Source of the DNA: Euglena gracilis
Taxonomy: Eukaryota
Assembly: GCA_039621445.1 (NCBI GenBank)
Contig: CP154954.1
Coordinates: 46,851,847-46,915,846 of the forward strand
Reading direction: 5' to 3'
Length of the DNA stretch: 64,000 nt
Made by a program: the position numbers and the translations under genes. Of this stretch, positions 1,471 through 27,302 are shown in pieces. Each line of letters starts with the position of its first letter. Within the stretch, counting starts at the first letter, position 1. The notes under the pieces were generated by a model. It saw nothing but the letters and a program-made list of their open reading frames with translations. It was not told where the DNA came from and made no database searches.

Positions 1471-1474
1471 CTCT

Positions 1475-6726: not shown

Positions 6727-6737
6727 GGTAGCAGAGG
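6726..6737 (+). promoter_or_regulatory. Primer-binding site of B (tRNAi-Met-like), overlapping the last LTR base
   Basis: TGGTAGCAGAGG, whose first T is the terminal T of the LTR. Confidence 0.8.
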
Positions 6738-7340: not shown

Positions 7341-10146
7341 ATGCCAAGGATCCTGGAGGAGATGGACGAGGATGCGGCAGAGGTGGAGTATGACGTGGCA
7401 GAGGAGACGTACGAGCAGACCATCGAGATGTACGACGAGGCTGGGCCCGCAGGTGAGGGATACGAGGAATATATGGCCCCCGAGATGTACCAGGAGGAGA
7501 TGGGTGCCGGGGACGAAGTCCCGGTGCAAGACCAGCCCATGCAGGACGAGTATCCCGGGGTGTCGGAGGAGGTGGCGGTGTTGCTGACGAGCTGCATCGA
7601 CGCCGTGGGTGCCCAAGTCCGCGGCGTGGAGACGAGTCTCGGGCAGGTGGTGGCCCAGCTCGACCTCCTGGGCAACCGCACCCGGGAGATGTGGGATGAC
7701 TGGCCCACCGCGGCGCTGGAGGAGATGGACAAGGAGATCAAGGCCACGAAGGATGCGTCCGCGGCGGCCTATCGGCAAGTGGCGGAGGGGCAAGGCAAGG
7801 TCATCGCGCAGTTCATGGAGACTATCCAAGCCCAGCACGGACGGCTCGAGGGCCAAGTGGCGCAAGCCAAGGCGGCCGCCCGAAAGGCGGCGGATGAGGC
7901 GGCCCAAGCAATCGCCGCCGTGCAGGCTGAGCACCGATGCCGCGAGGCAGAGGTGCAAGGCCAGACGGCGATGGTGCGTGCCGGCCCCGGCGAAGGTGCG
8001 GCCCGGGTGGTGGACCTGGAAACGGCAGTGGAGGTGGCCCGTCTCCGGGGAACCATGGTGACGCGGGAGGAGCTCGCCACGGTGGTGCGGCAGATGGAGG
8101 AGGGAGGTGGACCAAGTGGTGACGGCGCTGTTCAGGGAGATACAGATGGCGAAGGACGAGATCAAGCAGTGGTCTGTCAAGATGTCCGGTCTCCGCCCGG
8201 CCGGGGGACCCCCGGTGTCCGCGGCGGCTCAGACCACGCCGCCAGTGTCCCAGCGCCAACCGTCGTCCTCCGCTGTCCAGCGTGCACCGTCCCATCCGCA
8301 GCCGTCCCGCACGCAAGTGCAGCAGTCCGCGCTGTCGTCGCATCCGTCTGCACCGGCATCGCGTCCCTCCAGCACCGCCGCCCCACCAACGCACCGAGCA
8401 GCGCAGCATCCGGCATCACACCCGCAAGCCGCGACCGTCGCCATGTCCAAGCCGTCAGCACCGGTTCCGGTGCCGGTGGCTGCTGCCCAGTCTGTCCGAG
8501 TCCAAGTCCGACCCGTCTCCAAAGTCTCCGTGCCCGTGTCAATCCAGCCGCTGGGTGCCGAAGGCACCGATCCGCAGTGTGCCGAAGGCACGGTGTACCA
8601 GCAAGCCATCCATCCCAACCCATCGCATGCCATGCATCAGACACCCGCGGTGGCGTTCGCCACCGGGATGTCTCCCCAGCCAGCCGTGCAGTCATCAGCC
8701 CACCCTGCCGGCGGGCCCCCGCCGGTGATGCAGTCCGCGGTGCCGGCTGCGACTGCGGCCACACCGGCGGACTCAGCCAACCCGCCCGCGTCGCGGCTCC
8801 GACCGGAGCTGCGGCTCGTGCGATCCCGCCCGGTACCGACGAATGCAGCACCGATGCTCCTCATGCGTGCGGGGGCGAGCGTGCCCGCACCAGTGAGGGG
8901 AATCGCCATCCGAGAAGTCCAAGCAACCACCCTGCCGCTGGGGGCTCCCCAGCTGCAGATCCTGCCACCGCACCTCCTGGATGCGCTCGGGGGGAGGCAT
9001 CCGGGCCGGTTCTCGGGTAACGCCGACGACTGGCCCCAATGGAGGCGGCGGTGGCTCCCCTACCTCCGCGAGGTGGAGGGGATGGTCCCCCTCCTCACCG
9101 AGGCGCAGCGGGTGGCGCTGCTGTGGAGTACGGTGGACGAGGCGACGGCGTTGCACATCGACCTGATGGTGGAGACCTACCCCGAGATGCCGTTCGAGGA
9201 GCTGTGGGCGAGGCTGGACCTGGAGCTGGGTGGAGACGACCGAGAAGCACTACGAAGGAAGCTCCGTCACCTCAAGGTGGTGACGCGGGGCAAGCTGACG
9301 GAGCGAGAGTGGCGGGAGTACTTCGCCAACGCCAAGGCGCTGGCGATGCAGATCGGGGACATGACGGACGTGGAGATAGCCCGCCTGGTGGTGGATCAGC
9401 TGGGCCAGCCATGGAGGAAGCAGCTGGCCCATGAGGAGGATCGGCGCCGTGACCACGCGGCGCTGGTCCTGGAAGGCCTACCGGAGGATGTGACGGTGGC
9501 GGAGGCGACGGAGATGGTGGTGGAGGAGACGGGTGTCGTGCCGAAGAAGGTGGATCGCCAAGGCAGAAGAATCAAGGTGGTCCCGGCGGATGATGACCAC
9601 CGGGCGGCCATCAAGGCGGTGTACGACCGGCAGAAGCTGTCTGGTGGAGCCATCGTCCGGGTGGCACCGGACACCGTGGAGTTCACCGCCACCCAAGTCA
9701 ACGACCTCATGGTGCGGTGGCTGAGGGTGGACCAGCGGGCCGCCACCATGGGCGACCCCGAGCCGGCCCACCGCAAACCGGCGGCACCCACAAGATGGCA
9801 GCGGGAAGTGGATGTCGAAGATGAAGAGGACGAGACCGACACCACGGCCAATCAAGGAGTCCAGGAGGAGTCCAACATCAAGGAAGTGAAGAAGGAAGCG
9901 GTGAAGAAAGAAAAGGAAGGAGAAGCGAAGAAGGTGGACGAGACCAAGGACTCCAACGATGCCCAAGGCTTGGCTGGCCGAGGCAAAGGCAACCAGCAGC
10001 CGTGGAATGAAGGATGGACCGGCAAAGGTGAAGGCAAGAGGAAAGATGGTGGAAAAGGCAAAGGCAAGGGTAAGGGGAAAGGCAAAGGCGGTGAGAAGGG
10101 TTCCGGCAAAGGAGAAGCGGCCGGGACGACATCGACGCAGCAATGA
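7341..10146 (+). CDS. gag: gag-like ORF of element B (one frameshift near 8100)
   Basis: ATG 7341 (MPRILEEM...), coiled coil, Pro/Ala linker, capsid-like region homologous to A gag, GKGKGK tail, TGA 10144-10146. Confidence 0.8.
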
Positions 10147-13100
10147 CGGGGCCGTCCAGGTGAGGGGAAGGGCCTGGACCGGCAGTCAACCCCCCAGCCG
10201 ACATCCGCACCAGGGACGAGGCTGGTAAGAGCGGTGGAGTATGAAGAAGAAGGATGGCGGCTGGTCCAAAGAAAGAGAAGAGGCAGGAAATCTCCAAAGG
10301 AAGGGGAGAGACCCTGCCTGCGGCAGATGTCGAAGGCGAAGCCGACACCATCGTCCCCATCAACATCACCGAGAGTGCCGAAGGCGAAGGTGACATCATC
10401 GTCCTCATCAACGCCGACGGCATCGGCAACGAAGACATCATCGACCTCATCAACGCCGGCGGCATCGGCAACGAAGACAGCATCGAGATCGAGTCTACCA
10501 AGATCTACGTCATCGCCATCAACAACACCGACAACATCATCACCGAAGGCATCACCAAGTATCCACAAGACACCACCACAAGAAAGACAAGCACCGGCGA
10601 AGGAGGTGAAGAAAGCACCGGCGAAGAAGGAGAAGACAGAGCCGGTGAAGAAGGCGGCGAAGGAAGAGAAGGAAAGATGGGCGCTGGACCTGTTCTCCGG
10701 AACGGGAAGTGTGAGAAGAGCGCTGGAGAAGATGGGCTTCAAGGTGATCAGCGTGGACTGGGATGAGAAGTGGAAGCCGGACATCGTGGCCGATGTGAGG
10801 AAGTGGAGGTACTGGGAGCAGTACGCTCCCGGCCATTTCGAGGTCATCGCGGCGTCCCCGCCCTGTACCGAGTACTCCGCAGCCCTCACCACCCGCAAGA
10901 CGAGGCTCCGCATGGCGGACGCGGTGGTGAAGGCCACGAGGGAGCTGGTGGAGTACTTGGCGCCTACGCGGTGGTGGATTGAAAACCCGAGGTTCGGCTT
11001 GCTGCGGTGGCGACGAGTCCTGCGCGGAGTGCGGTACGTGGATGTGGACTACTGCCGCTTCGCGGAGTACGGGTATCGCAAGCCAACCCGCTTCTGGGTC
11101 AGCGACGCGATGGCGAAGGAGCTGGACGACGTCATCTGTGGTGGAAAGTGCGGCAGTAGTGGAAGGACCAGATGGCGTACGACGACATCGGCTGCAGCTG
11201 GGAGGCAGTGGCGCCGAGCGCAGGTGCACAAGGGAGCAGGCCTACCGCATCCGGGAGGGGGTGGTGCGGTACCTGTGCCTGGGGGAAAGGGCACGGGAAG
11301 AAGTGGCGGTGGTGGAGGAGGCGAAGAAGGTGCGGAAGGTGGTGGTGCGGCCGTGGCAGCACCTCCCGAACCGGCCGTTTACGGTCGGCCGGATGGAGCA
11401 CCGTGGGTGGTGCTACCAGCTGCTGATGGATGTGGAGGTGGAGGCAGGCGGGATGAAGATCCAGGCGAAGGCCTTGATCGATACGGGGGCGCAGACCTCC
11501 CTCGTGAAGAAGGAGCTGTTCCCGGAGTCGGTGTTCCACGCGGCGGCGAGACCCTTGGTGCTACGCACGGTGAGTGGAGAGGCGCTACCCGGAGGACAAC
11601 GAGAAGCAGAGCTGAAGCTGTCGTTCGCGGCCCATACCGAAGACGAGGAGCGGAGACCGAGGACGTGGACGACGAAGGTGGTGGCGTACGACGGTTGCAT
11701 CAGCACGGATCTGATCCTGGGGTATCCGTGGCTGCGGGAGAACCGCCTGGATGTCCAGCCATGGCGCGACACCTTGCAGCTCCACGCGGACCCCAAGTGG
11801 ATCCTGAGGCGGCGTGGAGACGAAGAGAAGAAGGAGGAAGATGGCGATGAAGACGAAGACGAGCTGGACGGCTACCTCTCCACGGTGAAGAAGATGCGGC
11901 AGCTGACCACGGACGAGGCAGCAGTCCGAGAGGTGGTGATGATGCTGAAGGAGGCCGAAGAAGCGGCGAAGGCGGTGCGAGGGGTGGTGGAGACAGAAGG
12001 CGACGTCGACCATCCCTTGACGCGGCAGCTGCGGGACGAGATCGTCAACGAGTTCGAAGGCCGGGTGTTCCGAGAGCGGGTGTGGCCGTGTCCCCCGGCG
12101 CGGGGCACCCATGGGAAGGCGGTGCTGAGGCTGAAGCCGGGGGCAACTCCGGTGGTGGGCCGGATCATCAACCTCAAGGGCGAGCGGCTGGAGGCCCTGA
12201 GGGAGATGGAGCGGGAGTGCCTGGCGGACGGCAAGCTGGAGGCGGGGCGGGGGCCGTGGAGGGCGGCCGCCTTCCCCATCCGCAAGAAGTCGGGCAAGTG
12301 GAGGCTGGTGTGCGACTACAGCTTGACCAACAAGATGCTGCAGATGGACTCCTACCCCCTACCGCTGACGGAGGACATCGTGAGCGAGCAGGCGAAGTGC
12401 GAGATCTTCTCGACGGTGGACCTGCGGGACGCCTTCCACCAGGTGGCCATGGCGGAGGAAAGCCGACCCATCACCAACATCCACCTGCCCGGCGGCCTCT
12501 GGCAGTGGACCGTGGTGCCCCAGGGCATCAACTTCGGTCCGGCGCTGCTCCAGAGGGACATCGACGCGACCTGCCGCAACGTCTCCGCCCACACCCACCC
12601 CTACTTCGACGACATCCTGGTGAGCACGAGGCGGCTGCCGGGGTGGAGCGACGAGGAGCTGATCAGGCGGCACGCGGGGGATCTGCGCGAGACCCTGCGG
12701 GCGCTGGAGGCGGATCGGTGGGTGGCGGACAAGAAGAAGGCGCAGCTGTTCCGCAAGAGGGCGGAGTTCGTGGGGCACGTGCTGGTGGAGGGCAAGCGCG
12801 TGCCCGCGAGCGGCAAGCTGGTGGCGGTGCAGCGGTGGCAACCCCCGGCCAATGTGACGAGTTTGCGCACCTTTCTCGGCCTCTGCAATCATTATTCGGG
12901 GTATGTACGTATGTACTCGGAGCTGGCCGCCCCCCTGCAAGAGAAGCAGAAGCTGCCGCGGGATTTATCCCGGGCGGGCAGCAAGCACCCCATCGGGTGG
13001 TCCGCGGCCGAGCTGGAGGCGTTCGAGAAGCTGAAGGCAGCGCTGGTGGCGGACCTGGAGCTGTGGCACGTGGACATGAACAAGCCGTTCGTGTTGCGCA

Positions 13101-15800
13101 CGGACGCCTCCGATTATGCGGTGGGCGCCGTGCTGGAGCAGCTGCCGAAGGTGGAGGGCATCCCCTCGGTGGAGGAGCTCCTGAAGCCCGGGGCGACGGT
13201 GGCGGTGGGCTTCATGAGCAGGAAGCTGACGGAGGGGCAGCGGCTGCGGTGGGATACCCGCGACAAGGAGACGTACGCGGTGGTGAGCGCGCTGGACAAG
13301 TGGGGCGGCTACATCACCGGGCAGAAGGTCCTGGTCCTGACGGACCATCGGTCCCTGGAGAGCTGGTACAAGGAGCACGTCTCCCGGGGATCGGGACCGC
13401 AAGGTCGGCGGGCGAGGTGGCACTCCAAGCTGAACGAGCACATGGTGGAGGTGGTGTACGTGCCGGGGGAGAAGAACGAGGTGGGGGACGCGCTGTCGCG
13501 GTGGGCGTACCCGGCCAGCCAGGAGTACCGAGACGACGCCGAGGAGATGGAGCAGCAGATCCGAGAGGAGAAGGCCGCGGAGCGCAGCTGCCCGAAGGCA
13601 GTACACCCGGTGGATAAGGTGTGCCCCCTCCCAACCGCAAATGCGGCATCCCCATCGCCGCCAGCCGGGACACCGGCAGCCACAGCGGCATCGGCCGGGA
13701 CACCGGCATCCGAGGCGGCGCCCGCCGGGATTCCGGCAGCCGGAAGACCGGCAATCCGACCGCCGCCCCCTCCGAACCCCACCGCGCCGGCTGCGACTGC
13801 AGCACCGACCGTGCGAGCGCCCAGTGGGACAGCGCTGGCGTCGCCCGGGCAGCCCGAGCAGCCGCAGCACCCAGCGGTGTCCGCGCAGCCCAAGCAGCAG
13901 CAGCAGCCCGCCACACCACGCACGGTGCGGTTTTCCGTATGGCCAGCAGGGGCACCGGCAGCAGCACCCGCTGTGCGATCCCCGTCCGCCGAGCAAGCGT
14001 CGTCTCCGCCCGCGACTAGCGCACGCAGCATCCCACCACCGTCCGCAGCAATCGCCGTGACCACCCGAAGCCAGGCGGCCGCCATGCCGCCCAGTGCCGT
14101 CGTCCCGAAGAAGCCAGCCGAGGGAGCGGTGCCGTCGGCCGGCCCACCCAAGGTGGGGGGGCACCCCAGCCCTCCCGCCGTGCCGCCAGTGGCAGCCGCC
14201 GTGCCGCCTGTGGCAGCCGCCGTGCCGCCAGCTGCAGCCACCTCGGCCGCAGCCCCACAAGACGAGGACCAGGACCTGATGGCGATGGACTGGAGTGAGG
14301 CGTATGAGAAGTGCCCAACGTTCAAAGAGCCGTGGCAGGCCATCAAGCACGGCCGGCCATGGCCCACCGGCTACCGGAAGGAGGCAGGCAAGCTGGTGAA
14401 AGATTCCGTCTGGTGCGTGCCGGATGCCCTGACCGAGCGGGCAATCCGAGAGCAGCACCGGGCGTCGGGGCACGTCGGTGGTGAGCGCCTCCTCGATGAG
14501 GCCAGTCGGAAATTCCAGTTTGCGGTGCCCTCCCGAGCACGCGATGCTGGCGGGCAAGATTCTGGCTGTGTGCGAGTTCTGCCAGGCGTCAGAGCACCCC
14601 CACCAACCCCTCCGGCTCCGCATCACGCCCACTCCAGTGCCGCCCCATGTGATGTGTTCGGTGAGCGTGGATCTGTTCCAGATGCCGGAGGTGGAGGTGG
14701 AGGGCGGCAGGCTGGTGAATGTGTTCGCAGCATGCATCGATCGGCACTCCGGCTGGGCGATCGCGACCGTGCACCACACCCGCGGGCTAACGGCGGAGGC
14801 AGTGGCGAAGGCGATGTATGAGCAGTGGGCGCAGTTCGGTGTGCCAAGCGTCATCACGTCGGACCGGGCCCCCACTTCGTGGGGGCCCGGTGGAGGGCAA
14901 TGTGCGCAATACTGGGGGTGCGCCATGCCTTCTCCCAAGCATACCACCACGAGGGCAACGCCCGTGCGGAGGTCCTCGGCGCGCAGATCCAGAAGCGGCT
15001 GAGGAAGATGAAGGCGGCGGAGGGCGTGGCGTGGCCGGAGGCGCTGCCGCGGGCCCTGCGGACCCTGCACGACAGTGCTGGGCCCAGCGGCCTGAGCCCC
15101 TTCCAGGTGCTCTTCGGCCGCGAGCGGTGGTACGGCGGGGTGCCGTACCAGCCGCCCACGCGGGCCGAGGACGCGGTGGCCTTCTTCGAGCGCATGCAGG
15201 ACATCGATCATCGTGTCGCGAAGATCTTGAACGAGGAGCACGCCAAGACAGCCGAGACGGTCAACAAGCGGAGGAAGGAGCTGCCGGAGCTGGAGATTAA
15301 CGACAAGGTCTGGTACCTCCGCCCGCGCACCCGCACCGGCGAGAAGCTGGAGACGTAATGGATCGGGCCGTGTGTGGTGGCAGAGCGCACCAGTGAGCAC
15401 ACGTACGTGCTCCAGATGGAGGATGGCCGGAAGCAGGTGGCCCACCGATCCCAAATCAAGAGCTACCGCCACGATCCAGCCCTCATGGGGCCACCGCTCC
15501 GCCTCTTCCACTTCCGCCAATCCAGGCCGGACGAGGGTTCCCGGCTGGACGAGTGGGAGGTGGAGGCGGTGGTCACCCACCGGCGCGATGCCAACGGCGA
15601 CCTCGAGTTCCTCGTCAAGTGGCTGGGGTACGAGGAGAAGACGTGGGAGCCGCTGCGGCACTTCTTCCACCGGTACGCCTCCCCGATCGTGTCGTACTTC
15701 GTCGAACACGACATCAAGGAGGACATCATGAAGTACCTCTCGAGGTTCCCGGAGGAAGCCCACATCGCCATCTGCCACGCCGTGGAGATCGAGAAGGAGA
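10147..15800 (+). pseudogene. pol: pol of element B: C5-MTase, aspartic protease, RT, RNase H, integrase, chromodomain
   Basis: IDTGA (~11480), YFDD (12602), RTDASDYAVGAVL, HHCC plus SVDLF/TSD integrase motifs, EWEVEAVVTHRR...FLVKWLGY...TWEP (~15551); frameshifts ~11160, ~14540, ~14870 and a stop near 15357. Confidence 0.9.
10678..11290 (+). other. C5-cytosine DNA methyltransferase domain in Pol of B
   Basis: Motif I ALDLFSGTG, motif IV SPPC (catalytic Cys 10864-10866), motif VI ENP (10981), motif VIII-like RKPTRFW. Confidence 0.9.
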
Positions 15801-16859
15801 AGGAGAAGGAGTTTGGGCTGTCCTGGGAGGAGCCAAGAGAGGAGTGGATGTGGCAGGACACCGAGGACGGAGATGTATGTCGAGAAGGTGATGATTCTGG
15901 AGACGATGATGAAGGTGATGGAGGAGACGAAGGAGATCGAGACCAAGAAGACGGAGGAGACGCTGGCCCGGCGGGTCCCCAACAAGCGGCCCACCCCAGG
16001 TACCCGGTCAGGGTCCACCGGCAGCCCGCGAGCGGCGAGCGCCCCGCTTCCGTGCGATCCGCGTCTGCGAGGGATGCGCTCTCCCGCGCTTCCCTTGCCC
16101 CTGCCCCACCGTCCACCACCCCATCACTCCCCATGTCCCACGCGTACCCACCCCGCAGTCCAGGCGTACCTCAGAGACCCGGTCCCCGAGTCTCCTCTGC
16201 CCCCACGGGTAGAGGTCGCCGCCCCCGCGTGTCGACCCGCAGGGACGCCCCAGCTCGGGATCCCCCGCTCCCACCAGGGGCCCCCGTTCCCGTGCACCCC
16301 CATGACCCGTCCCTGCGGCGAGGGGGCACCACCACCGGAGGCGTGCCCCTGCATGGCCACGGTGCGACCCGGCCCTTCCTTCACAACAAGGAGGCCACCC
16401 CTGCCCCCTGCCCTCACCCCATGGGGAAATGGAAAAGGCCTGGCGTCAAACTGGGATTTTCTCCATGGTGGTCGTGTTCCAGTTCATCTTTCTGTTCCTT
16501 CCCCTCGCCTTCGACGCTCAGGACAGGCGGCTGGCAGCGCGCGCGCAGGAGCTGAGCAGATGATCATGCTGGCTGTCGTCGTGAGGATATGCTGTGACGT
16601 CGGCGGCAGCTGGCTCACCCCCTACTGACCTGATGGATACTGTGGAGGCTCTCACCCACCAACCCAACCTCTTACACTGGTGTGCCACCCCTCCCATCTC
16701 TTCCCCAACCGAAGCTGAGTCACGGTGAGCCCGGCCGAGGCCGAGCCAGGAGAAAGGAGACCGGAGAGAGCCCAGAGAGGAGAGAGAGAGAGGAGAGGAG
16801 AGGAGAGCGACGAAGCACGGGGGCGAAAGCCCCGGGGAGAGGCGAGCAAAGAAGGACCA

Positions 16860-17605
16860 GGGGACCCAAAGGGGGGGGGGGACCCAACCGACCCCGGGGG
16901 CAAAAAGGGGGCCCAGAGGGGACCCAAGGAAGACCAAAGGACCCGGACCAGGGGAACCCAAGAGCGGCCAAGGGGGGGGGCCGCCCAAGACCACCCGGGG
17001 GGGGGGGGGCGCCCGGCCAGGAGGCCGCCCAGACCCCGGGGGGGGGGGGGGTACCCAAGAGCGGCCCAGGGGGGCCGCCCACGACCCCAGGGGGGGGAGG
17101 CGCCGAAAAAGCAGCCCAGGGGGGCCGCCCAGACCCGGGGGGGGGGGGGGGGCGCCGAAAAGCGGCCCAGGGGGGCCGCCCAGACCCCAGGCAGGGAGGG
17201 GGCGCCAAAGAAGCCCAGGGGGGCCGCCCAGACCCCAGGGGGGGGGGGGGGGCCGAAGAACGGCCCGGGGGGGCCGCCCGAGACCGCCCGGGGGGGGGGG
17301 GGGCACGCACGGCCCAGGGGGGCGGGCAAAAAAAAAAGCTGCCAGGGGGCCGCACAGACCGACCCAGGGGGGGGGACCCAAGAGCGGCCCAGGGGGGGGC
17401 CGCCCAGGACCCCAGGGGGGGGGGGCCAAGAAACGCGGCCCAGGGGGGCCGCCCAGACCCCAGGGGGGGGGGGGGGCGCCGAAGAACGGCCCAGGGGGGC
17501 CGCCCAAGACCACCCGGGGGGGGGGGGGGCACGCACGGCCCAGGGGGGCCGGCAAAAAAAAAAGGGCGGCAAGGGGGATCGCCAGCCCCAAAGGGGGGGG
17601 GGGCA
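16860..17605 (+). repeat. G-run-rich ~60-bp tandem array in the 3' region of B
   Basis: About a dozen degenerate units of GCGGCCCAGG(G)nCCGCCCAGACCCC(G)n. Confidence 0.85.
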
Positions 17606-17907
17606 ACCGAACCCTGACAAGAGCACCCACCAAGGAGAGCCAAGGAGAGCCAGAGCCAAAGCCCGAGCCCAGCCTATTCCTGAGGCCAGCCCGCAAGGCC
17701 GGACGACGTCAGCAGCGACGCCCACCGAACGCCTGCGGAGCACGGCCAGGGATTGGCTGGCGTCCACCCCCACCCGGACCACAGGAGCCCGCCCGCAGCC
17801 GGCACGCCAGGCAGCGGCGCAACGAAGGACCGGGAAGACCCGGCCAGGCTCCTGTGGCAGGGGGGCGAGAGAGGCAGCGGCCAGGCCCGGCAGCCGGAGG
17901 CAAGGCC

Positions 17908-17919
17908 GAGGAAGGGGAG
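17908..17919 (+). promoter_or_regulatory. Polypurine tract of B
   Basis: GAGGAAGGGGAG abutting the 3' LTR. Confidence 0.85.
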
Positions 17920-18562
17920 AGTTGGCGGACCGGCCGCTGCACCTTCCGTTGCCACTATTACAGCCTGCTGTTGTATATACTGAACCACTGCGCTAATTCA
18001 GCATCAAAATAGCGCAAACCGCTCTCTAACTGTCCTATGTATTTCACTGCAGGCTCCCTCTCTTTACCTATGGTTTCAATTCAAGATTGTGCCTGCTGAA
18101 TCAAGACCAAGGTCAAATTATATCAATTTTCAAGGAATTTCAAGGGAATTCAAAGAAAGGCGCTGGAGCGAAGAAAGTGCAAAAGTTCAAGAAAGTCAAA
18201 AAAACCCAAGGGCGGAGCAAGCAAAACATTACAAAAGATTGGATATCTGCTGGCACAGGAAGAGCAGTACAAGCAGAAAAGGTGTTGGTGCTGGGGTACA
18301 AGAAGCCTAGGGGAGGGCAACCAGGCCTTTTCCTAAACCCCCCCCACTGCCGGAAGGGACGCCAAGCCGGACTCCCCCCCTCCAGCCACTCCACAAAAGG
18401 AGGGCCTTCGGTCCCCGGGAAAAAATCCTACGTGGGAAGGGGAGTATCCCGAACCTACCCCTCTCCCCAGAGCCCATCGCGCCTACCCCCCACCCCGCCG
18501 GTACCCCCTCACGGACCCCCGGGAGTGAAGGCTGGGCAAAAAACAACAACATTCGGGAAACT
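17920..18562 (+). repeat. 3' LTR of element B
   Basis: Direct repeat of 6085-6726. Confidence 0.95.
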
Positions 18563-18983
18563 CAACGGTGGACCCCCTGTTTGCCTTTAGGGATGCCGGG
18601 GTAGAAAATTTCAGGGGTTTATGACCCCGGGCATTGGAAACCCCAACCCAGCTTCTAAACCCGACCCTTCCACCCGTAACCTCCAATCCACCAACCATCT
18701 TACCACAAACGAAATGACGGGGAGCGGAGCTTGGAGTGAAGTCAAATGGGCCGGCCGAGCCCAGCGTGATGGAGTGAGGGAGCGAGAAGCCAAGACCCCC
18801 CGGAGCCAAGGAGAGCAGGCACGGCCCGGAGGCGGGCGAAGGAGGTTTGAGGGGGAAGCGAATCCCCTCCCATTCCTTTCGCGTGCACATCCCTCCCCAT
18901 TCCACATGCCAAGCCAAAACTATTATGATTGTTTGAATGGGAATAGGCGGGCCTCAAACAAAAAGTGGGCCAGGAAATTTCCC

Positions 18984-19590
18984 AGGGCATTGGACCTCTT
19001 TTCTGGGAAAAATTCAGTGGGAAATTATTTGCGAGAAAAGGGTTATGAGGTGATTTCGGTGGACATCAACCCAGGTTTTCACCCAACCCATCCCGTGGAC
19101 ATCCTAGAGTGGGAGTATCGAGTATACCCCCCTGGATATTTCCAAGTCATAACGGCTAGTGTGCCTTGCACGGAGTATAGTCGTGCTAAGACGGTGGGAG
19201 AAAGAAATTTGGAGTGGGCAGACCAACTTGTGACAAAAACTTTGGAAATCGTGGAATATTTTCAGCCCAAATTATGGTGGATTGAAAATCCCCGAACGGG
19301 ACTTTTGCCAAAAAGGCATTGTGTGCAAAACTTGAATTTTATCGATGTGGATTATTGTCAATTTTTAGACTGGGGATACCAAAAACCCACTCGGATTTGG
19401 GGGAGTGAAAATCTGTTGAGTTTGAAGGACAAACTTTGTGATGGGAAAACCTGGTTTCATTTGATTGTGAGTGAGGGGGGTGGTTTGGTTCACAAAGAAC
19501 AATTGGGAGGAAACGGAATGAGGGTGAGCACTCAACAAAAATGGAGGGTACCTGAAAAATTGGTCGAGTACCTTCTTTCGGCCCTTGATA
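18984..19590 (+). other. C5-cytosine DNA methyltransferase domain in Pol of A
   Basis: RALDLFSG (I), VISVD (II), ASVPCTEYS (IV), WWIENP (VI), YQKPTRIW (VIII-like). Confidence 0.9.
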
Positions 19591-19619
19591 TTAAGGAGGA
19601 AAATTTTTCGTTTAAGTGT

Positions 19620-20012
19620 GAGGATTATGCCGTTCGAAACTCATTTGTGCAAATGATTGAGGAGAATTTTCAAAGGAGGGCCGAGGTGAATTGTTTTGCT
19701 TCTACCCAAAATTCTCAGTGCACATCATATTTGACCGAGAAGGAAAATGCTTTGGCGGTACCATGGGGAGGGGGGGGTACGGTTTGGTTGAACCCCCCCT
19801 GGACATTGTGGCCAAAGGTGGCAAAGAAATTGCAAAAGGACCCTTGTGATGCCATTTGCATCTTACCTGATTGGAGCAAAGGGTGGGTAAGGGAACTTGT
19901 TCGGAAGGCATCAAAAAAGTTGTATTTTCCACCCGGAACCAAACTTTTTGAGGTGGATGGGAAACCAATGGGGGGTGTGAGGTGGGGAGTTTGGACCTTG
20001 TTGATAGAGGGT
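19620..20012 (+). other. N6-adenine DNA methyltransferase-like domain (phage Dam / DIRS-type) in Pol of A
   Basis: NCFASTQNSQC (D/NxFAS..N), NALAVPW, WLNPPW catalytic motif (19791-19802), ICILPDW...W. Confidence 0.82.
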
Positions 20013-23000
20013 AATAAGGCCCCCGCCAACACTAGCAACCCCAAGAGAACAAAGGTGGTACATTTGAAATCGCGGATGGTTAAAAAGAGATACCCACCCA
20101 CAGGGATTGAGAAATTTTCGAAGGACCGACAACTTTTGATTCGGACAAGGGTTGTTTTAGGGAACGGGGAGGAACAAAATATGGACATTTTGGTGGACAC
20201 CGGTGCCGAGGCTAACCTCATAAGACAAGGGTTAGTGAGTGAGCACCTAATGTATTCGGCCGAACACCCCTTAAGGTTTGAAACCGCTAACGGTCAAGCC
20301 TTGAGTGGTGGGGGGAGGTGCACTAAGGTGGTGATGAAGTTGCAAGGGGAGGTGAGTGATAACACCCCACCCACAGATTTTGAGTTCGATGTGGAATTTT
20401 ATGAAGCCAATATCAAAGTAGACGCAATTTTATCATACCCATGGCTTGTATGCACAAAAATCGGAATTTTTCCACATCACCGTGTAGTGGAGGAACCCGA
20501 ATTGACATTTTTATTCGGTGTGAGAGATCATAGGAGAAAACGGCAAGGAAAAGTCCCTTGCACCCTACCCCAAGGGGGGGGGGTGACGAATTTGGAAAAG
20601 TTTGGTTTTCTCCTTCCGATGGAGGGTTTTGATCAAAGGGGACAAACCTTGGACGAGCACTCGCTCAAAATTTTGGGCCAGAATTTAGAGATGGCAAATG
20701 AAAACCCCCTACCTATTCGCAAAATGATCATTGCAAGGGAGGGGGAGGGGAATAATGAAACGGAATCCGAAGAGGAAGAGAGAATAAGGAAGCTAAGAGA
20801 GGAAATTTTTGGAAGGTATGATGGAACCGTGTTTCGGTCTAAGGTACAACCCGACCCACCCGTAAGAGGACCATATGGTTATGCATTCATACCTTTGCAA
20901 GAAGGAGCGCGGCCTACCCGACAAAAACCATTTTTCATGCACGGGGAACGAAAAGAAGCTTTGGAAAAAATCACTCAAGATTGGATCGATATGAAATTCA
21001 TCGCGCCAGCCACAACAAAAAATTCAGAATGGCTCTCACAAACATTCCCCGTACCCAAAAAGTCAGCCGATTTTCCTTGGAGGGGGGTTGTTGACATGAG
21101 GGGACCCAACAGCCAATCCCGTAGGTGCAACTACCCTCTTCCGAAAATCGAAGACATCCTGGTGAAGCATGGCGCAAACCAAATGTTCTCCATTTTGGAT
21201 TTAAAACAAGCCTTTCACCAACAGCCGCTTCACCCGGATAGTAGGCCTATAACTTGCTGCTTCACACCAAATGATCTTTACCAATGGAGGGTGAATGTAA
21301 TGGGGTTAACTAACGCCTCACAACAATTGCAACAAATGATGGATGACCGTTTAGCACCCGTAAGGGATATTGCTACCCCATACATTGATGACATTTTGGT
21401 AGGGACCACCGTCTGGGAGGGGGAGGATCTCCTCGAGGCACACAAAAGGGATTTGTGTAGGGTTTTGGATTTACTCGCCGAGGAAAGTTTTGTAGTGGAC
21501 CCCAAAAAAGCGGAATTATTCATCAAGGAAGTGGAATTTTGTGGCCAGATTTTGGGGCATCGGCCCCCGGCAAATTACGCGCCATTGAAAAATGGGAGGT
21601 TCCTACAACCATAACGGCCTTAAGGGCTTTCCTGGGCTTCACAAATTATTACAACACCTACATACACATGTATGCCCAAGTTGCGGCACCTTTGCAAGAT
21701 AAGTTGAAGGTATCTCGGGAGGAAGGCAAGAAAGGGAGCAAAAAATGGGTTGAATTCGGGGAGGTTGAACACAAAGCATTTGAGGAGTTAAAGAAACGGT
21801 TGTGTTCCGGATTAATTCTTCAAAGGGTAGACCCCGATAAACCCTTTGCTTTGAGAGTTGATGCGAGTGGGTATGCCGTAAGAGCAACTTTAGAACAACT
21901 CAAAGAAGGAAACGGTACGCCCACACCCCAAGATATTTCGGACAAAAAAACGGTGCCTGTTGCTTTTATGTCCCGAAAACTCACCGAGGGGCAAAGAAAA
22001 TGGACCCCCCGGGAATTGGAGACATATGCCATAATTTTGGCACTCCAAAAATGGGAAAGTTGGATTGGTCTCCAACCCATTTTGGTGTTGACCGATCACC
22101 AAAGTTTGGAGGCATGGGCAAAAGAAGTGCTCGACACCCCAAGTGGACCGGCGGGGAGGAGGGCACGATGGCACCAAATTTTCTCAAAATACGATTTGAC
22201 AGTGGGGTATATTCCGGGGAAGGAAAACACCATTGCCGACATTTTAAGTCGGTGGGCATACCCCGCTTCGCAAGCCCTAAGGGACATTAGTAAACATGGT
22301 TCGGCCGAAGATAAGAGGGAAATGGAGGAGCTCATAAGAGAGGAAAGGGAAGATGAGAAAAATTGCTTGTTGGTCAAAGTAAAAAATCAGCCTAACGCTC
22401 GTAATTTGTGGATAAGGGGAGTGGTAACCCGCAGCGGAAAAGAGGTGGCACCCAATTTTGTGGATGATGCATCAGGGAGAGGTACCGAGAGTGTAGAAGG
22501 TCCGGGAGGAATAAACACCACCAAAGACGCTCACTCACAAGGGCCTAGGGAATTTGGTTCGAAAAAGGGTAAGAGGAGAGTTACCTTTTGGGATGGAGTG
22601 GACCCTGCGGGAAATTTGGTGACCAACCCAAAACTTCCGACTAATGAGTTACCGAGGGGGGGAACTGGAGGGGGTGGGGCCCCACCAACTCCAAGTGCAA
22701 CCCCTAAGCTAACAAAATCAGTTTGGGAGAGAGATTGGGTGGTTGCGTATACCGAATGCCCCACTTGGAAGGAAAATTGGCTTGCAACTCAAAACGACGG
22801 TGAGTGGCCAAAGGGTGTGAAAGTTCACAAGGACCGAATGTTTTTTGAGGAGAAATTGTGTGTCCCACTTTCTTTTCAAGAATTCATTGTGCAAGAGGTT
22901 CATGAATTCTTGGGACATGTTGGTCCGGAAAAAGTGTGGAATTTCATCATTTTGCGGTACGCATGGGCTGATGAAAAAAGGGCACGTGTTTTCAATGAAA

Positions 23001-25464
23001 GTTGTTCCAAAAATTGTGTCACGTGCCAAGCAAGTTCAAGGGGGGAGACTTTGAAGGGACCCATAGATTCAACACTCATTCCACCGGCACCCATGGTGAG
23101 TGTGGCCTTAGATCTTTTCAAAATGCCATTGGTAAAGTATGAGGGGGAAAATTACAATACCATGGCGGTATGTGTTGACCGGCACTCCGGTTGGATCGTG
23201 GCCATACCTTTTTTAGAAAAAGGATTAACGGGTGCAAAATTGGCAAAAGCAATGCTCAAACATTGGAGGCTTTTTGGGATTCCTTCTATCATTTTAGCGA
23301 CCAAGGGAGTCACTTCGTGAACACATGGTGGCAAACCATGTGCTCGTTTTTAGGAATTCGGCAAGCTTTTTCTCAAGCCTACCACCACCAAGCCAACGGG
23401 CGGGTGGAAAGGGCGGGTCAACAAGTCATGGAAATTTTGAGGAAACTATTTGTGGACGGAAAAATGAATTGGGTTGAGGCTTTACCCCAAGCTTTGGATA
23501 GGATTCATGATGTGAAGGGGGAGGGCGGTTTTAGCCCATACCAAATTATGACCGGTAGGGAACGTCCCCTTGGGGGGATACCTTACCAAGCTTCCAAAGA
23601 GTGTGAGGATGCACAATAATTTTTTCATCGAATGAAGCTAATTGATGAAACGGTGGCAAAGGTTTTAAACCACACCCATGAGGTCAAAGCTAAAAGGATT
23701 AACCAAGGTCGAAGAGAAATGGAACCATTAAAAATTGGAACCCATGTGTGGTACAAACGACCCGAGGGTTCGGGTGAAAAATTAAACTCGAGGTGGATTG
23801 GTCCCGGTATTGTCAAAGCTCGGGAGGGAGAGAGGAGTTATGTTGTGGAAACCAAACCGGGTGTGCAAATTAAGACACACCGAAGTTTTCTCAAGGAGTA
23901 TAGGGAACCACCGGTTTTGGCAAAGGGGTTCCTTTGTATTTTTTCAAACGGACGGAAAAAGAGGAGGAGGCAATGCCCGATGAATGGGAGGTTGAGAAAA
24001 TTTTGGCCCACCGTAGGAAGGGGGATTCGTGGGAATTTCTCACCAAGTGGGTTGGTTATGAGGAGGGGGAAGAAACCTGGGAACCCATTGTAAATTTCAT
24101 TCATCGGTTTAGCCATGAGTTGGTTCGGTATTGTGCACACAAAAATTTGAAGGTGAATTTAATGGGGGAGCTTCAAAAATCTTTGTGAGCCAATTTTATT
24201 GAGGCTCAATTTTGCTTTGCTTTTGGATTTTATTTGACGGTGAGCTCAATTTTTAGAAGCTCTGGGAGGTGGAACGGGGCCAAGTGCCTTGCGGCACCGG
24301 GGGGCCTTGATTTCACGCTCCTATCCTCCATTTTGTATGTGCACGTTTCCTTTGGGTGCGGGCACATACACGGACGCGTCATTTTGCTTTGCGTGCACAC
24401 ATGTGCACACGTTATTTTGCTTGGCTTGCCCGCGTCACTTTGTTTTGCTTGTTCTCGTTGCTTTGTATTGGCCTTTTTGTCACAGGAGAGAAGCGGGAAG
24501 CTCCAGCACGCCGGGAGCCCCGACTTTGTAAATATTTGTAAATATTCACCCACGCATAGCTGGCGTTTTTTTTGTTTTTTTTAAAAAAAACGTTTTTTTT
24601 TGTTTTTTATTAAAAAAAACGGGCAAAAAAAACGGCAAAAAAAACAAAGGGGAAAATGATGGTCCAAATTTTGCCTTTGATCGCAAGGGTGAACCAATCT
24701 CAGCTCAAATGACTTGAAAACCAATACTTTTGGTTGTCTTCAACAAGAATGGTCAAAATAGGGCATTTTTTGCCATTTTGGGATGTTTCAACTTGAAACA
24801 TCCCAAATTTGGTATCTTTCTCTGACCGAGGATGGGTAAAAAAAGCTAAAATTAAAGGCAAAAAATTTTTTTGCCCTGGACCCTCAATGGCGTTTTTTTT
24901 GTTTTTTTTAAAAAAAACATGTTTTTTTTTAAAAAAACGTGTTTTTTTTGACTTCGTTTTAAACGAAGTGCCAGCTATGCACCCACGCGTGGGCATTCCT
25001 TCAAATGTTTGGGAGGAAGGAAGGAAAGGGGTTGGGGGTCCCCTCGGCAACAACCATCGCTATCTCCGACGACGCTACATTCGCCACCTCCATCATCTCT
25101 ACTTACACCAACACCAACATCACCACCCCGACAACACCGACCTCTACCAACATCGACGCCTCTACGGAAAGGGTGGTTGGCGGCGGTACGGAGGATTGCT
25201 CGTTTCACCCCTACCGCTACCTTTACATCAACGATTCGCACCTCATTTATAACCGTTACTCCTCCCTTCCCCCCACGCATCCCTACCCACACGCACGCGC
25301 ATACCCCCCCGGCAGTTGGAGAGTCCCGAGAGCAAAAATGTAAGTAGGGAGAGTGTGAGATTGGCCATAGCCCCTGTGCTATCGGTTGGACACTCGCAAG
25401 AATTCTTTTCGGTTTTTTCCCCCCAATTTTTTGAAGCCCTTCAAGGAGATGGAGTTGTGAGCAC

Positions 25465-25720
25465 ACTCTCCCCCGGGGGGGGGAAGGCCGATTTTTTCAA
25501 CTCCCCCGGAGGGGGGAGGGTGAATTTTTATTTTCCCCCGGGGGGGGGAGGCCGATTTTTTCAACTCCCCCGGAGGGGGGGGAGGGTGAATTTTTATTTT
25601 CCCCCCGGAGGGGGGGGAGCGAATTTTTATTCCCCCCCCGGGGGGGGAGGGCGAATTTTTAACCCCCCGGAAGAAAGGTTGCGGGCAATTTTTTCAATAC
25701 CCCCAAAAGGGGGGGGCAAG
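25465..25720. repeat. C-run/G-run tandem array in the 3' region of A
   Basis: Six or more units of TCCCCC(G)nAGG...ATTTTT. Confidence 0.75.
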
Positions 25721-26246
25721 CAATTTTACCCTTGGGAAAGGAGGAGCGGCCATGTATTTTCCCCCGAGTCAAAGGGGGGGGGGGCGATGTGCCATTCTCC
25801 TTGGCAAGAATTTCCATTGGACCGAAGGAATCTTTTGTTTGTGAGACCAATTCCTTTTTGTTCACCGGGTGAGTTGAGAGGTTTTGTAATTCTTTTCCTT
25901 TGCAATCAAGTAGGACGCTTCTTGGTTTCAAAGGATGATTCACTCTCACATTTTTCACCAGAAATTGTTAAGTAGGTTCAAGTTGGATCTTCCCTCATGT
26001 ATTTTCAAGTTATGTTTTTTGGAGAGGGATACACCATTCCAAGGGGGGGGGACATTTTCTCCCCACAACGATGACAAAAAAGGGAGGAAATGCTGCCCGT
26101 TTCATTCGCACATGGTCGCAAGAGCAACTAGAAGAGGGGGGAAAGGTACCAAGGATGTGAAGAAAGTCCCCCTTGCCCATCTTTCCATTGGGAACGGACT
26201 TCGGATTTAGACTTGAAGGCAATTGAAGGAGGAGTTGGACGCATGC

Positions 26247-26251
<5 letters not shown>

Positions 26252-26316
<65 letters not shown>
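26252..26316. repeat. (CA)n microsatellite
   Basis: Direct. Confidence 0.95.
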
Positions 26317-26322
<6 letters not shown>

Positions 26323-26565
26323 CTTTTTTTTGGGTGGCATCATGAGGCTTTTATGTGCTTGATTGGAAGATGGTGAACACATTGTATGGGTTGGCATACA
26401 ATGTAAGTTCTGAATTTTTGAGAGGGGCATAGGCCTGTTTGTTTATTCGGTTCCTCAATTCTCTCCAAAGGGTGTTCTTCGTGTTTCATCTTCGACCCCC
26501 CCCCCGCTTCCGAAAAATGCGACTTTTTGCAATTTTGATTTTTTTCGGAGTCCGACTAAAGTCGC

Positions 26566-26576
26566 AAGGGAGGGGG
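26566..26576 (+). promoter_or_regulatory. Polypurine tract of A
   Basis: AAGGGAGGGGG abutting the 3' LTR. Confidence 0.85.
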
Positions 26577-27298
26577 TGTAGACCGTTGGGGGTCGTCAAC
26601 GGTCTAAGGGGGGGGGAAGCACCCAAAGGACCATTTTTCAAAGTCGCGCACAACATCGCTAAGTGCGCGCTTAAATTCACTTTTTGGAAACCTTCCAATT
26701 CATTCTCGAGTTAGAACAAAAACCCCAAAGGTAGCTAATTATCCCCATTTCACAGACATTTGTGGGTTTTTTTTATTATTGACCATTATCCGAAGTTGAA
26801 GTTTTGGAAGCGGAATTCAAGTCATCAAGGTTTCTTGGATATTTGACAACTATTTGAATTCTACGGTGGAAGTGGATTGATTCAATTGTGACAGGGGACT
26901 TTCCAACTGCCGGACGCCCTCCGGCCACCTTTTTGACCCATTCCGGTGTGTGTGGACTTCCGGACATCGGTGTTGGTGTGTGGCATTCTTTGTGCTATTT
27001 GCATTTTTTTGGGTTGGCAAACCAAAGTTCATACATTTCGAAGGATAGCACCAAAGGTTTTCAATGGGAGTTTGGGGAATTTTTGAAATGTTGTTTCCGA
27101 TCCTACGCGGGGAGTCCCAGCCGGGAAGGAACCCGGGGGAAACACCCGAAAATGACTTGAGCCCACCATTTTTGGGAAAAAAACCGGTTCCGGCGGGGGC
27201 ACCCGCACCCCCCCACGGGCTGGTGGCTGGGGGGACGGACCCCGGCGAGGGGGGGCCTGGCCCGGCCCCGGCACGGGAGGGGGGTGCGGCCCTGAACA
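26577..27298 (+). repeat. 3' LTR of element A
   Basis: Direct repeat of 1475-2195. Confidence 0.95.
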
Positions 27299-27302
27299 CT
27301 CT

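What the first reader, a model, noticed from the sequence alone, without database searches (positions are those of the whole stretch)
18621..24188. Chromodomain Ty3/gypsy retrotransposon whose Pol carries BOTH a C5-cytosine and an N6-adenine DNA methyltransferase
Seen: one open frame (18621-21614) encodes C5-MTase motifs (DLFSG, PC, ENP), then an FAS..N / NPPW / LPDW amino-MTase domain, then protease and RT; RH, IN and a chromodomain follow. Known: C5-MTases have been reported in retrotransposons of Symbiodinium dinoflagellates and Klebsormidium, and Dam-like domains occur in DIRS tyrosine-recombinase elements. I am not aware of both in tandem in a DDE-integrase LTR element. Inference: the two enzymes are packaged with Pol, released by the protease and mark the cDNA with 5mC and 6mA before integration, while the chromodomain reads host chromatin.
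Basis: partly seen in the sequence, partly recalled or inferred. Interest (0 to 1): 0.95.

Follow-up and report, generated by a model that had tools for sequence, protein, structure and literature searches.

The report
Dead copy of known dual-methyltransferase retrotransposon
This is a broken copy of a Euglena-type LTR retrotransposon whose polymerase gene really does carry both a cytosine and an adenine methyltransferase plus a chromodomain, but that design was already described in a 2026 preprint under the name EpiLTR.

Summary
Window 18591-21614 is one 1007-aa open frame reading C5-DNMT, Dam-like N6-adenine MTase, aspartic protease, RT. RNase H, DDE integrase and a chromodomain follow to 24188. 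Folds agree: DNMT3/HhaI for the first domain, and PCIF1, T4 Dam and EcoDam for the second.

The element is larger than reported. It spans 1475-27298, with 721/722-bp TG..CA LTRs and a CTCT target-site duplication. Its gag is split by a nested 12.5-kb chromovirus at 6085-18562.

This copy is dead. It has three private frameshifts, one TAA stop, and an Asp-to-Asn change in the Dam cofactor motif. Other copies in public runs lack these four indel and substitution lesions.

Uninterrupted 1804- and 1911-aa relatives keep the same module order.

The novelty claim fails. A bioRxiv preprint of May 2026 (10.64898/2026.05.21.726589) describes Euglena gracilis "EpiLTRs" with DAM, DNMT and a chromodomain. 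The window's protein is 94% identical to a protein whose source name looks like a Euglena gracilis transcript.

cDNA self-methylation remains untested. Side leads: a DNMT-only sister lineage, shuffled module orders, and phage-like stand-alone DNMT relatives.

The parts
1471..1474 (+). Target-site duplication CTCT, left copy, of the host element
   Evidence: Same four bases at 27299-27302.
1475..2195 (+). 5' LTR of the host (dual-MTase) element, 721 bp, TG...CA ends
   Evidence: Aligned to 26577-27298 with 4 mismatches in 720 ungapped columns (99.4%).
2196..2211 (+). Primer-binding-site-like sequence starting TGG directly after the LTR
   Evidence: Read from the sequence. The tRNA partner was not identified.
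3419..5083 (+). 555-aa ORF upstream of gag, in the gag frame, closed by TAA at 5084-5086
   Evidence: Pfam gives only one weak, sub-threshold coiled-coil hit (DUF7310, 17.6 bits against a cut-off of 40). Weak tblastn matches sit upstream of pol in L001 and L004.
5087..6084 (+). gag-like ORF, first part, cut by the nested insertion
   Evidence: Its frame continues at 18567 once the nested element and one TSD copy are removed (worked out).
6085..18562 (+). Nested GC-rich chromovirus. LTRs at 6085-6726 and 17920-18562, ends AGTT...AACT, TSD CAAC at 6081-6084 and 18563-18566. It carries a DNMT (10681-11302), PR-RT-RH, IN and Chromo, but no Dam
   Evidence: LTR pair: 12 mismatches in 642 (98.1%).
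18567..18624 (+). End of gag, with TGA at 18622-18624
   Evidence: Read.
18606..18612 (+). Candidate -1 frameshift heptamer A_AAU_UUC, inside the 34-nt gag/pol overlap (18591-18624)
   Evidence: Read. The pol frame is -1 relative to gag. No supported downstream structure (z 0.54).
18954..19580 (+). C5-cytosine DNA methyltransferase domain. Motifs DLFSG, PC, ENP, QKPTR and GGNG are present
19626..20015 (+). Dam-like N6-adenine methyltransferase domain (NPPW). The cofactor-motif Asp is changed to Asn at 19689-19691
20106..20465 (+). Aspartic protease (DTGA)
   Evidence: Weak Pfam hits. Aligns to the PR of relatives.
20871..21560 (+). Reverse transcriptase. Its 3' end is cut by the first frameshift, where other copies carry 13 more bases at 21560
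21758..22192 (+). RNase H (RT_RNaseH), in the second frame
22862..23383 (+). Integrase zinc-binding (H2C2) and DDE core. The core is crossed by the second frameshift, where other copies have one more C at 23294
23617..23619 (+). In-frame TAA inside the integrase C-terminal region
23985..24122 (+). Chromodomain, in the third frame, after the third frameshift (other copies have one more T at 23914)
   Evidence: Pfam Chromo E 5e-10..
24189..26576 (+). 3' non-coding region with a 32-nt tandem repeat (25465-25694) and the polypurine tract AAGGGAGGGGG (26566-26576)
26577..27298 (+). 3' LTR of the host element, 722 bp
27299..27302 (+). Target-site duplication CTCT, right copy

Best explanation
The locus is a recently inserted but already inactivated copy of a high-copy chromovirus (Ty3/gypsy) LTR retrotransposon family. 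This kind was described in 2026 as the Euglena 'EpiLTR'.

The element spans 1475-27298 and has this layout:
- LTR, then an upstream ORF and gag.
- Pol in the -1 frame, probably reached by ribosomal slippage on A_AAU_UUC.
- Pol order: short C5-DNMT, Dam-like N6A-MTase, protease, RT, RNase H, DDE integrase, chromodomain.
- A 3' region, then the second LTR.

What is shown: the anatomy, the folds, the conserved catalytic motifs, and intact relatives with the same module order.

What is inferred: both methyltransferases are made as part of Gag-Pol. They would therefore sit in the particle with the replication intermediate, and they would mark the new copy (cDNA or RNA:DNA hybrid) so that it fits the host's 5mC-rich, 6mA-bearing chromatin. 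The chromodomain would steer integration. I put this inferred step at about 0.35.

This copy does none of it. Its gag is split by a nested DNMT-only chromovirus. Its pol has three private indels, a TAA stop, and an Asp-to-Asn change in the Dam cofactor motif.
For: Domains and order: Pfam, PHROGs, a PDB profile hit to DNMT1 motifs IV-VI, and DNMT3/HhaI/DNMT1 by Foldseek.

Dam model: mean pLDDT 92.1. Best matches are PCIF1 (Z 11.1), T4 Dam (Z 9.3) and EcoDam (Z 9.0) (Foldseek).

The element is complete at its ends: LTRs 99.4% identical, TG..CA termini, TSD CTCT, and a PPT.

Nested insertion with its own LTRs and TSD CAAC.

The same order in uninterrupted relatives: P0272 (1804 aa, 66% identity) and P0273 (1911 aa, 60%) read DNMT-Dam-RT-RH-H2C2-rve-Chromo.

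Domain-wise identity to P0272 and P0273:
- DNMT 65-66%.
- DAM 57-62%.
- PR 48-62%.
- RT 81-86%.
- N-terminus and DAM-PR linker only 22-41%.

Catalytic residues: PC and ENP are at least 90% conserved in 90 sequences. N-P-P and the cofactor Asp are at least 90% conserved in 102 sequences.

Lesions private to this copy:
- At 19689, every contig laid in all 4 runs reads G.
- Contigs carry +13 nt at 21560 in 1 of 4 runs, +C at 23294 in 3 of 4, and +T at 23914 in 4 of 4 (in X11 only a small part of the depth). Not every contig in those runs carries them.

Family abundance: 5145 and 1842 contig pieces were laid from two DNA runs.

Host: 237 of 251 residues match a protein named EG_transcript_20987 in EukProt.

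Prior description: the EpiLTR passages.
Against: - The DNMT Pfam score of this copy is below the gathering cut-off (19.8 and 21.8 against 22).
- No enzymatic activity is shown for any member. The preprint reports no 6mA gain with representative eukaryotic DAMs in dam-deficient E. coli, and low or undetectable LTR expression in E. gracilis.
- The frameshift site has no supported stimulatory RNA structure.
- The species assignment rests on one source name and on coded run labels.
- I could not see the preprint's figures or supplements, so I cannot confirm that its Euglena EpiLTR has this exact module order.
- The nested element's LTRs look older than the host's. This is unexplained.
Confidence: 0.88

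Rival explanations
1. The Dam-like module is not a dsDNA enzyme. It methylates adenosine in the element's RNA or in the RNA:DNA replication hybrid, in the manner of PCIF1. The '6mA on cDNA' picture would then be wrong in substrate.
For: The best solved match of the Dam model is the RNA cap m6Am methyltransferase PCIF1 (VIA Z 11.1 over 133 residues; Foldseek TMq 0.57-0.63). It ranks ahead of T4 Dam (Z 9.3) and EcoDam (Z 9.0). rRNA adenine MTases (Erm, KsgA) fill the next ranks. The preprint found no 6mA gain in E. coli and itself raises a DNA-RNA hybrid substrate.
Against: Pfam and PHROG assign the domain to phage DNA Dam families (PF05869 E 2.6e-10, phrog_111 E 5.8e-10). Z values of 9-11 differ by less than a fold search can use to tell substrates apart. 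The preprint reports that more E. gracilis DAM-LTR insertions carry 6mA.
Confidence: 0.22
2. The two methyltransferase modules are passenger or relic domains with no catalytic role. They would be retained only as spacers or for binding.
For: Heterologous DAM assays were negative. This copy carries Asn in place of the cofactor-motif Asp. The target-recognition region of the DNMT is very short.
Against: The catalytic motifs are kept in uninterrupted relatives only 43-66% identical to this copy. Both domains are conserved as well as or better than the protease, and far better than the linkers. The Asn is private to this copy.
Confidence: 0.08
3. The apparent fusion is an artefact. On this reading a separate methyltransferase-bearing element or gene is nested in, or mis-assembled next to, an ordinary chromovirus.
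For: Nesting is common here, since one element sits inside another in this very window. The preprint warns of nested insertions and assembly artefacts in E. gracilis.
Against: A single uninterrupted 1007-aa frame runs from the DNMT through the RT. There are no repeats or TSD around 18954-20015. The same order occurs in single ORFs of 1804 and 1911 aa from other contigs. A named transcriptome protein spans DNMT end, DAM and PR.
Confidence: 0.02

Closest known systems
Euglena gracilis EpiLTR / Euglena DAM-LTR (bioRxiv 10.64898/2026.05.21.726589; I read the outline, passages, and sections 9 and 10)
   Same: [quoted passage not shown] The host is very likely the same: the window's protein is 94% identical to a protein named EG_transcript_20987.
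   Different: No difference in kind was found. This copy is degraded and carries a nested element. The preprint's figures and supplements were not available, so I could not compare the exact module order or clade.
Cymbomonas tetramitiformis EpiLTR (same preprint)
   Same: A chromovirus with DAM, DNMT and a chromodomain. The preprint says the DNMT modules of both hosts form one clade.
   Different: There the DNMT is appended to the 3' end of pol. Here the DNMT is the first domain of pol, directly before the DAM and upstream of the protease.
KnitGypsy-Dnmt3 of Klebsormidium nitens (de Mendoza 2018, PMC5890265, passages)
   Same: A C5-DNMT inside the Pol ORF of a Gypsy-type element.
   Different: That element has a Dnmt3-type DNMT, no Dam domain, and a DIRS-like repeat arrangement. 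Here the DNMT is a short one of about 210 aa whose best family match is phage phrog_757.
DIRS1-like retrotransposons with a Dam-like methyltransferase
   Same: The same Dam family (PF05869, NPP[WFY] motif). The preprint derives LTR DAMs from DIRS DAMs.
   Different: DIRS elements use a tyrosine recombinase and split or inverted repeats. This element has a DDE integrase, a chromodomain, direct LTRs and a 4-bp TSD. No Phage_integrase hit appeared in the 15 ORFs scanned.
SymbioDIRS-Dnmt3 and SymbioLINE-Dnmt of Symbiodinium (PMC5890265)
   Same: Retrotransposon-borne DNMTs in a host with pervasive CG methylation. The authors propose self-methylation of the cDNA.
   Different: Different element classes (DIRS, LINE), different DNMT types, and no Dam.
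PCIF1/CAPAM, T4 Dam and EcoDam (solved structures)
   Same: The amino-methyltransferase Rossmann fold with an NPP[FWY]-type catalytic motif.
   Different: There is no detectable sequence match to any PDB chain. The domain is much smaller (about 130 aa), with no separate DNA-recognition domain.

Membership tests
EpiLTR (LTR retrotransposon with DAM + DNMT + chromodomain) | Direct LTRs flanking the element, with a target-site duplication | tested here: met
   LTRs at 1475-2195 and 26577-27298, 99.4% identical, TG..CA ends, TSD CTCT.
EpiLTR (LTR retrotransposon with DAM + DNMT + chromodomain) | DAM domain with the Asn-Pro-Pro catalytic triplet | tested here: met
   PF05869 at 38.7-40.7 bits against a cut-off of 28.1. 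NPPW is present. The fold matches N6-adenine MTases.
EpiLTR (LTR retrotransposon with DAM + DNMT + chromodomain) | C5-DNMT domain in the same polyprotein | tested here: met
   Same ORF as the DAM and RT. PF00145 is just under its cut-off in this copy, but 13 of 15 relatives match at E <= 0.01. DNMT1 profile hit E 1e-5. DNMT3/HhaI fold.
EpiLTR (LTR retrotransposon with DAM + DNMT + chromodomain) | Chromodomain | tested here: met
   PF00385 E 5e-10 at 23985-24122.
EpiLTR (LTR retrotransposon with DAM + DNMT + chromodomain) | Placement in the Euglena DAM-LTR clade of the preprint's RT and DAM trees | not testable with these tools
   The preprint's sequences, figures and supplements are not held. 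There is only indirect support from 94% identity to a protein named EG_transcript_20987.
Chromovirus (Ty3/gypsy with a C-terminal chromodomain) | Order PR-RT-RH-IN with a DDE integrase and a chromodomain at the integrase C-terminus | tested here: met
   Pfam order. The copy is colinear with P0272 residues 61-1801.
DIRS-like retrotransposon | Tyrosine recombinase instead of a DDE integrase | tested here: not met
   No Phage_integrase hit in the 15 ORFs scanned. rve and Integrase_H2C2 are present.
C5 DNA methyltransferase (PF00145 superfamily) | Motif I (FxGxG-like), motif IV Pro-Cys, motif VI Glu-Asn-Val/Pro | tested here: met
   DLFSG, VPCTEYS and IENPRTG are in the translation. P89, C90, E129, N130 and P131 are at least 90% conserved in 90 sequences. 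They align to DNMT1 motifs IV-VI.
C5 DNA methyltransferase (PF00145 superfamily) | Catalytic activity on DNA cytosine | not testable with these tools
   I found no assay for this DNMT type. The passages of de Mendoza 2018 that I read refer to de novo CG methylation by retrotransposon DNMTs of the Symbiodinium and Klebsormidium work.
Dam (PF05869) N6-adenine DNA methyltransferase | Conserved cofactor-motif Asp (D-x-F-A) intact | tested here: not met
   This copy has Asn (VNCFAS). The column is at least 90% Asp in 102 sequences. Every contig laid at that place in all 4 runs reads the Asp codon. The family feature is intact in relatives. The lesion is private to this copy.

The most novel reading that the evidence does not exclude
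Two leads together go beyond the text of the preprint that I could read.

(a) The short DNMT module may be a phage/virus-type C5-MTase. A chromovirus lineage without a DAM would have captured it first. The nested element at 6085-18562 and the intact P0279 represent that lineage. The DAM would have been added later, and the modules then shuffled repeatedly. The orders seen are DNMT-DAM-PR, PR-DAM-DNMT, DAM-PR-DNMT and PR-DNMT.

(b) The DAM module may act on the RNA or the RNA:DNA replication intermediate, as PCIF1 acts on RNA, rather than on duplex DNA.
Probability: 0.2. Interest if true: 0.6.

Novelty: already known. Interest (0 to 1): 0.3.

Why it matters
A retrotransposon that carries writers for both 5mC and 6mA plus a histone-mark reader is a striking case of a mobile element bringing its own epigenetic toolkit. 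It has already been reported for Euglena gracilis and Cymbomonas in a 2026 preprint.

This locus adds a fully resolved anatomy:
- LTRs, target-site duplication and polypurine tract.
- A candidate -1 frameshift site.
- MTases placed upstream of the protease.

It is also a worked example of decay and nesting. Beyond that, it gives leads on a DNMT-only sister lineage, on shuffled module orders in environmental relatives, and on the substrate of the Dam-like domain.

Tried and rejected
- Whole-genome census: no genome is held for this window. Copy counts, intact-copy counts and codon-level dN/dS could not be done.
- Sequence search of the MTase block against PDB chains gave 0 hits. The Dam profile against the PDB gave nothing below E 0.75. 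No solved member of this Dam family was found by sequence.
- The search for related loci:
  - The single protein found 0 relatives among 101 stretches.
  - A tighter alignment then gave 27 loci.
- RNA structure downstream of the slippery heptamer: MFE z-score 0.54, and 144 of 200 shuffles fold at least as well. There is no support for a stimulator.
- A Dam domain in the nested element or elsewhere in the window: none. The best other tblastn hit had E 0.19.
- Expression:
  - Runs X15 and X17 hold contigs of the family, but their RNA label is a guess by the tool. I do not count them as evidence of transcription.
  - The only transcript evidence is the EukProt name of P0009.
- A variant genetic code as the reason for the in-frame stops: I considered it but did not pursue it. 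There are only two TAA stops. The frame breaks are explained by indels that other copies lack.
- An MTase block as a separate nested insertion: rejected (see rivals).
- DIRS context of the nearest Dam relatives: 10 longer representatives were scanned.
  - All 10 gave a Dam hit, 5 of them above Pfam's cut-off.
  - One also has a DNMT, one has a weak RVP, and none has a recombinase.
  - The DIRS link therefore rests on the literature only.
Full report
**The observation**

From stop to stop it runs 18591-21614 (1007 aa), and the ATG at 18621 is internal to it.

Pfam places four domains on it:
- A C5 DNA_methylase segment at residues 175-242 (E 5.8e-4, 19.8 bits, just under the cut-off of 22).
- A Dam domain at 353-442 (E 1.1e-9, 38.7 bits, above the cut-off of 28.1).
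- A weak aspartic protease at 526-580.
- RVT_1 at 841-987.

Three further pieces in other frames give RT_RNaseH, Integrase_H2C2, rve and Chromo (E 5e-10).

The weak DNMT call is confirmed in other ways:
- A profile of 90 relatives aligns to motifs IV-VI of DNMT1 in the PDB (E 1e-5).
- The domain matches phage family phrog_757 (E 7.1e-11).
- An AlphaFold model was built for the 387-aa MTase block (mean pLDDT 81.9). Block mean pLDDT is 91-98 over residues 31-200 and 81-97 on to about 230. Its best Foldseek matches are DNMT3B, DNMT3A, HhaI and DNMT1 (E about 1e-7).

The Dam part was modelled alone (mean pLDDT 92.1). It has no sequence match in the PDB. Its fold is nearest to N6-adenine methyltransferases (Foldseek agrees):
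- PCIF1, Z 11.1 over 133 residues.
- T4 Dam, Z 9.3.
- EcoDam, Z 9.0.
- Erm and KsgA enzymes next.

**Anatomy of the whole element**

The finding covers only pol.

A 721/722-bp direct repeat at 1475-2195 and 26577-27298 has these features:
- It begins TG and ends CA.
- It differs at 4 of 720 aligned positions.
- It is flanked by CTCT on both sides.
- It is followed by a TGG-initiated PBS-like sequence.
- It is preceded by the polypurine run AAGGGAGGGGG.

Inside this element, a second pair of 642/643-bp repeats lies at 6085-6726 and 17920-18562. These have ends AGTT..AACT, 12 mismatches, and flanking CAAC on both sides. They bound a GC-rich (0.67) element of 12.5 kb.

Removing that insert and one CAAC joins the gag-like ORF 5087-6084 in frame to 18567-18624, where it ends at TGA.

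The pol frame opens at 18591 in the -1 frame. The 34-nt overlap contains the heptamer A_AAU_UUC at 18606-18612 in the correct register (read). By my own estimate, such a heptamer in register within 11 codons is expected by chance about 2-4% of the time. No downstream structure is supported. The -1 frameshift is therefore an inference.

**State of this copy**

Two uninterrupted relatives serve as guides: P0272 (1804 aa) and P0273 (1911 aa). Against them the window copy is colinear over residues 61-1801. It changes frame near 21560, 23296 and 23919, and has TAA at 23617-23619.

I laid contigs of four public runs on 18400-24300. Contigs carry:
- 13 extra bases at 21560, in 1 of 4 runs.
- An extra C at 23294, in 3 of 4 runs.
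- An extra T at 23914, in 4 of 4 runs, though in X11 this is only a small part of the depth.

Not every contig in those runs carries these bases. Every contig laid at 19689 in all four runs reads G, where the window has A. That base turns the Asp of the Dam D-x-F-A motif into Asn. The Asp is conserved in at least 90% of 102 sequences.

The lesions are therefore private to this copy, and gag is split by the nested element. The locus is a dead copy of a family that has intact members. The family is abundant: 5145 and 1842 contig pieces were laid from two DNA runs.

**Relatives**

A search with the MTase block gave 183 hits.
- The best named hit is 93% identical (237 of 251 residues) and is called EG_transcript_20987 by EukProt. 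I read that as a Euglena gracilis transcriptome protein. It spans the end of the DNMT, the DAM and the start of the PR.
- Of 15 aligned relatives, 13 match Dam and 13 match DNA_methylase.

P0272 and P0273 carry DNMT, Dam, RT, RNase H, H2C2, rve and Chromo in one ORF, in the window's order.

Identity between the window's Pol and these two, by domain:

| Region | Identity |
|---|---|
| DNMT | 65-66% |
| DAM | 57-62% |
| PR | 48-62% |
| RT | 81-86% |
| N-terminus and DAM-PR linker | 22-41% |

Both methyltransferase domains are thus kept about as well as the protease.

**What is in print**

De Mendoza et al. 2018 (PMC5890265; I read passages) describe SymbioLINE-Dnmt, SymbioDIRS-Dnmt3 and KnitGypsy-Dnmt3. 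They note Dam-like enzymes only in DIRS elements.

A bioRxiv preprint of 22 May 2026 (10.64898/2026.05.21.726589) covers this architecture. I read its outline, passages, and sections 9 and 10. It reports:
- DAM domains in non-DIRS LTR elements.
- An independently assembled Cymbomonas version, with the DNMT at the 3' end of pol.
- That the EpiLTR DNMTs are sister to DNMT4.
- That representative DAMs gave no 6mA gain in dam-deficient E. coli.
- That E. gracilis DAM-LTRs are more often 6mA-marked.
- That LTR expression in E. gracilis is low or undetectable.

Searches for 'EpiLTR' and for Euglena/LTR/chromodomain/methyltransferase terms found no other paper on the architecture.

The preprint's figures and supplements were not available to me, so I could not compare module order or clade.

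**Mechanism**

Shown: both enzymes are encoded in the Pol frame upstream of the protease, with catalytic motifs conserved across relatives.

Inferred: they are translated as Gag-Pol, so they enter the particle and can act on the replication intermediate or the new insertion, while the chromodomain guides integration. I rate this at about one in three.

The fold ranking (PCIF1 first) and the negative E. coli assay leave open that the Dam-like domain works on RNA or on the RNA:DNA hybrid.

**Leads beyond the finding**

- *DNMT-only lineage.* The nested element carries a DNMT 43% identical to the host's, followed directly by PR-RT. It has a chromodomain but no Dam. P0279 (2513 aa) is an intact relative of that DNMT-only type.
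- *Other module orders.* Environmental relatives show PR-DAM-DNMT (P0013, P0015, P0019), gag-DAM-PR-DNMT-RT (L001), gag-PR-DNMT-RT-RH-IN (L004) and DNMT-PR (L002).
- *Stand-alone DNMTs.* DNMTs of 212-222 aa, 35-40% identical, sit in compact contigs. One of the two I examined, L005, has phage-type glucosyltransferase matches. This hints at a phage-type origin of the DNMT module and needs a proper phylogeny.

**Unexplained**

The nested element's LTRs (98.1%) are more diverged than the host's (99.4%), although the insert must be the younger of the two.

**Verdict**

But it has already been described, and this copy is non-functional. Hence a low to moderate interest score.

Noticed in passing
window 6085-18562: The nested GC-rich (0.67) chromovirus has a C5-DNMT (10681-11302, 43% identical to the host element's) directly before PR-RT. 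It also has a chromodomain (15359 onward) but no Dam domain. It is itself frameshifted. P0279 (2513 aa) is an intact relative of this DNMT-only type. I found no description of DNMT-only LTR elements of Euglena in the texts I read.
   Followed up: partly
L001, L002, L004; proteins P0013, P0015, P0019, P0179: Relatives carry the same modules in other orders: gag-DAM-PR-DNMT-RT, DNMT-PR, gag-PR-DNMT-RT-RH-IN, PR-DAM-DNMT and DAM-DNMT. The two methyltransferase modules have moved within Pol repeatedly.
   Followed up: partly
L005 619-1257; L009 4007-4675: Stand-alone 212- and 222-aa DNMTs, 35-40% identical to the element's DNMT, lie in densely coded contigs. L005 also has matches to phage glucosyltransferase families (PF20691, phrog_25200, phrog_842). 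Possible phage or virus origin of the DNMT module.
   Followed up: partly
window 28178-31472, minus strand: A non-LTR retrotransposon-like ORF pair. It has RVT_1 (E 7.2e-16) with a C-terminal LRR_6 match. The upstream ORF begins with a 2A-like 'DVEQNPGP' peptide.
   Followed up: no
window 1475-2195 / 26577-27298 versus 6085-6726 / 17920-18562: The host LTR pair is 99.4% identical, but the LTR pair of the element nested inside it is only 98.1% identical. This is the reverse of the expected age order.
   Followed up: partly
window 16993-17607 and 25465-25694: A tandem repeat of about 50 nt (9 copies) lies in the 3' region of the nested element. One of about 32 nt (5 copies) lies in the 3' region of the host element. 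Both are G/C-run rich.
   Followed up: no
window 5084-5086: An in-frame TAA separates a 555-aa ORF (3419-5083) from the gag-like ORF in the same frame. Whether it is a mutation or a real ORF boundary is not resolved.
   Followed up: no
window 10144-10146: In the nested element the ORF before pol (8062-10143) and the pol ORF (10147 onward) are in the same frame, separated by one TGA. The host element uses a -1 overlap instead. The two related elements seem to differ in how pol is reached, unless this stop is a mutation.
   Followed up: no
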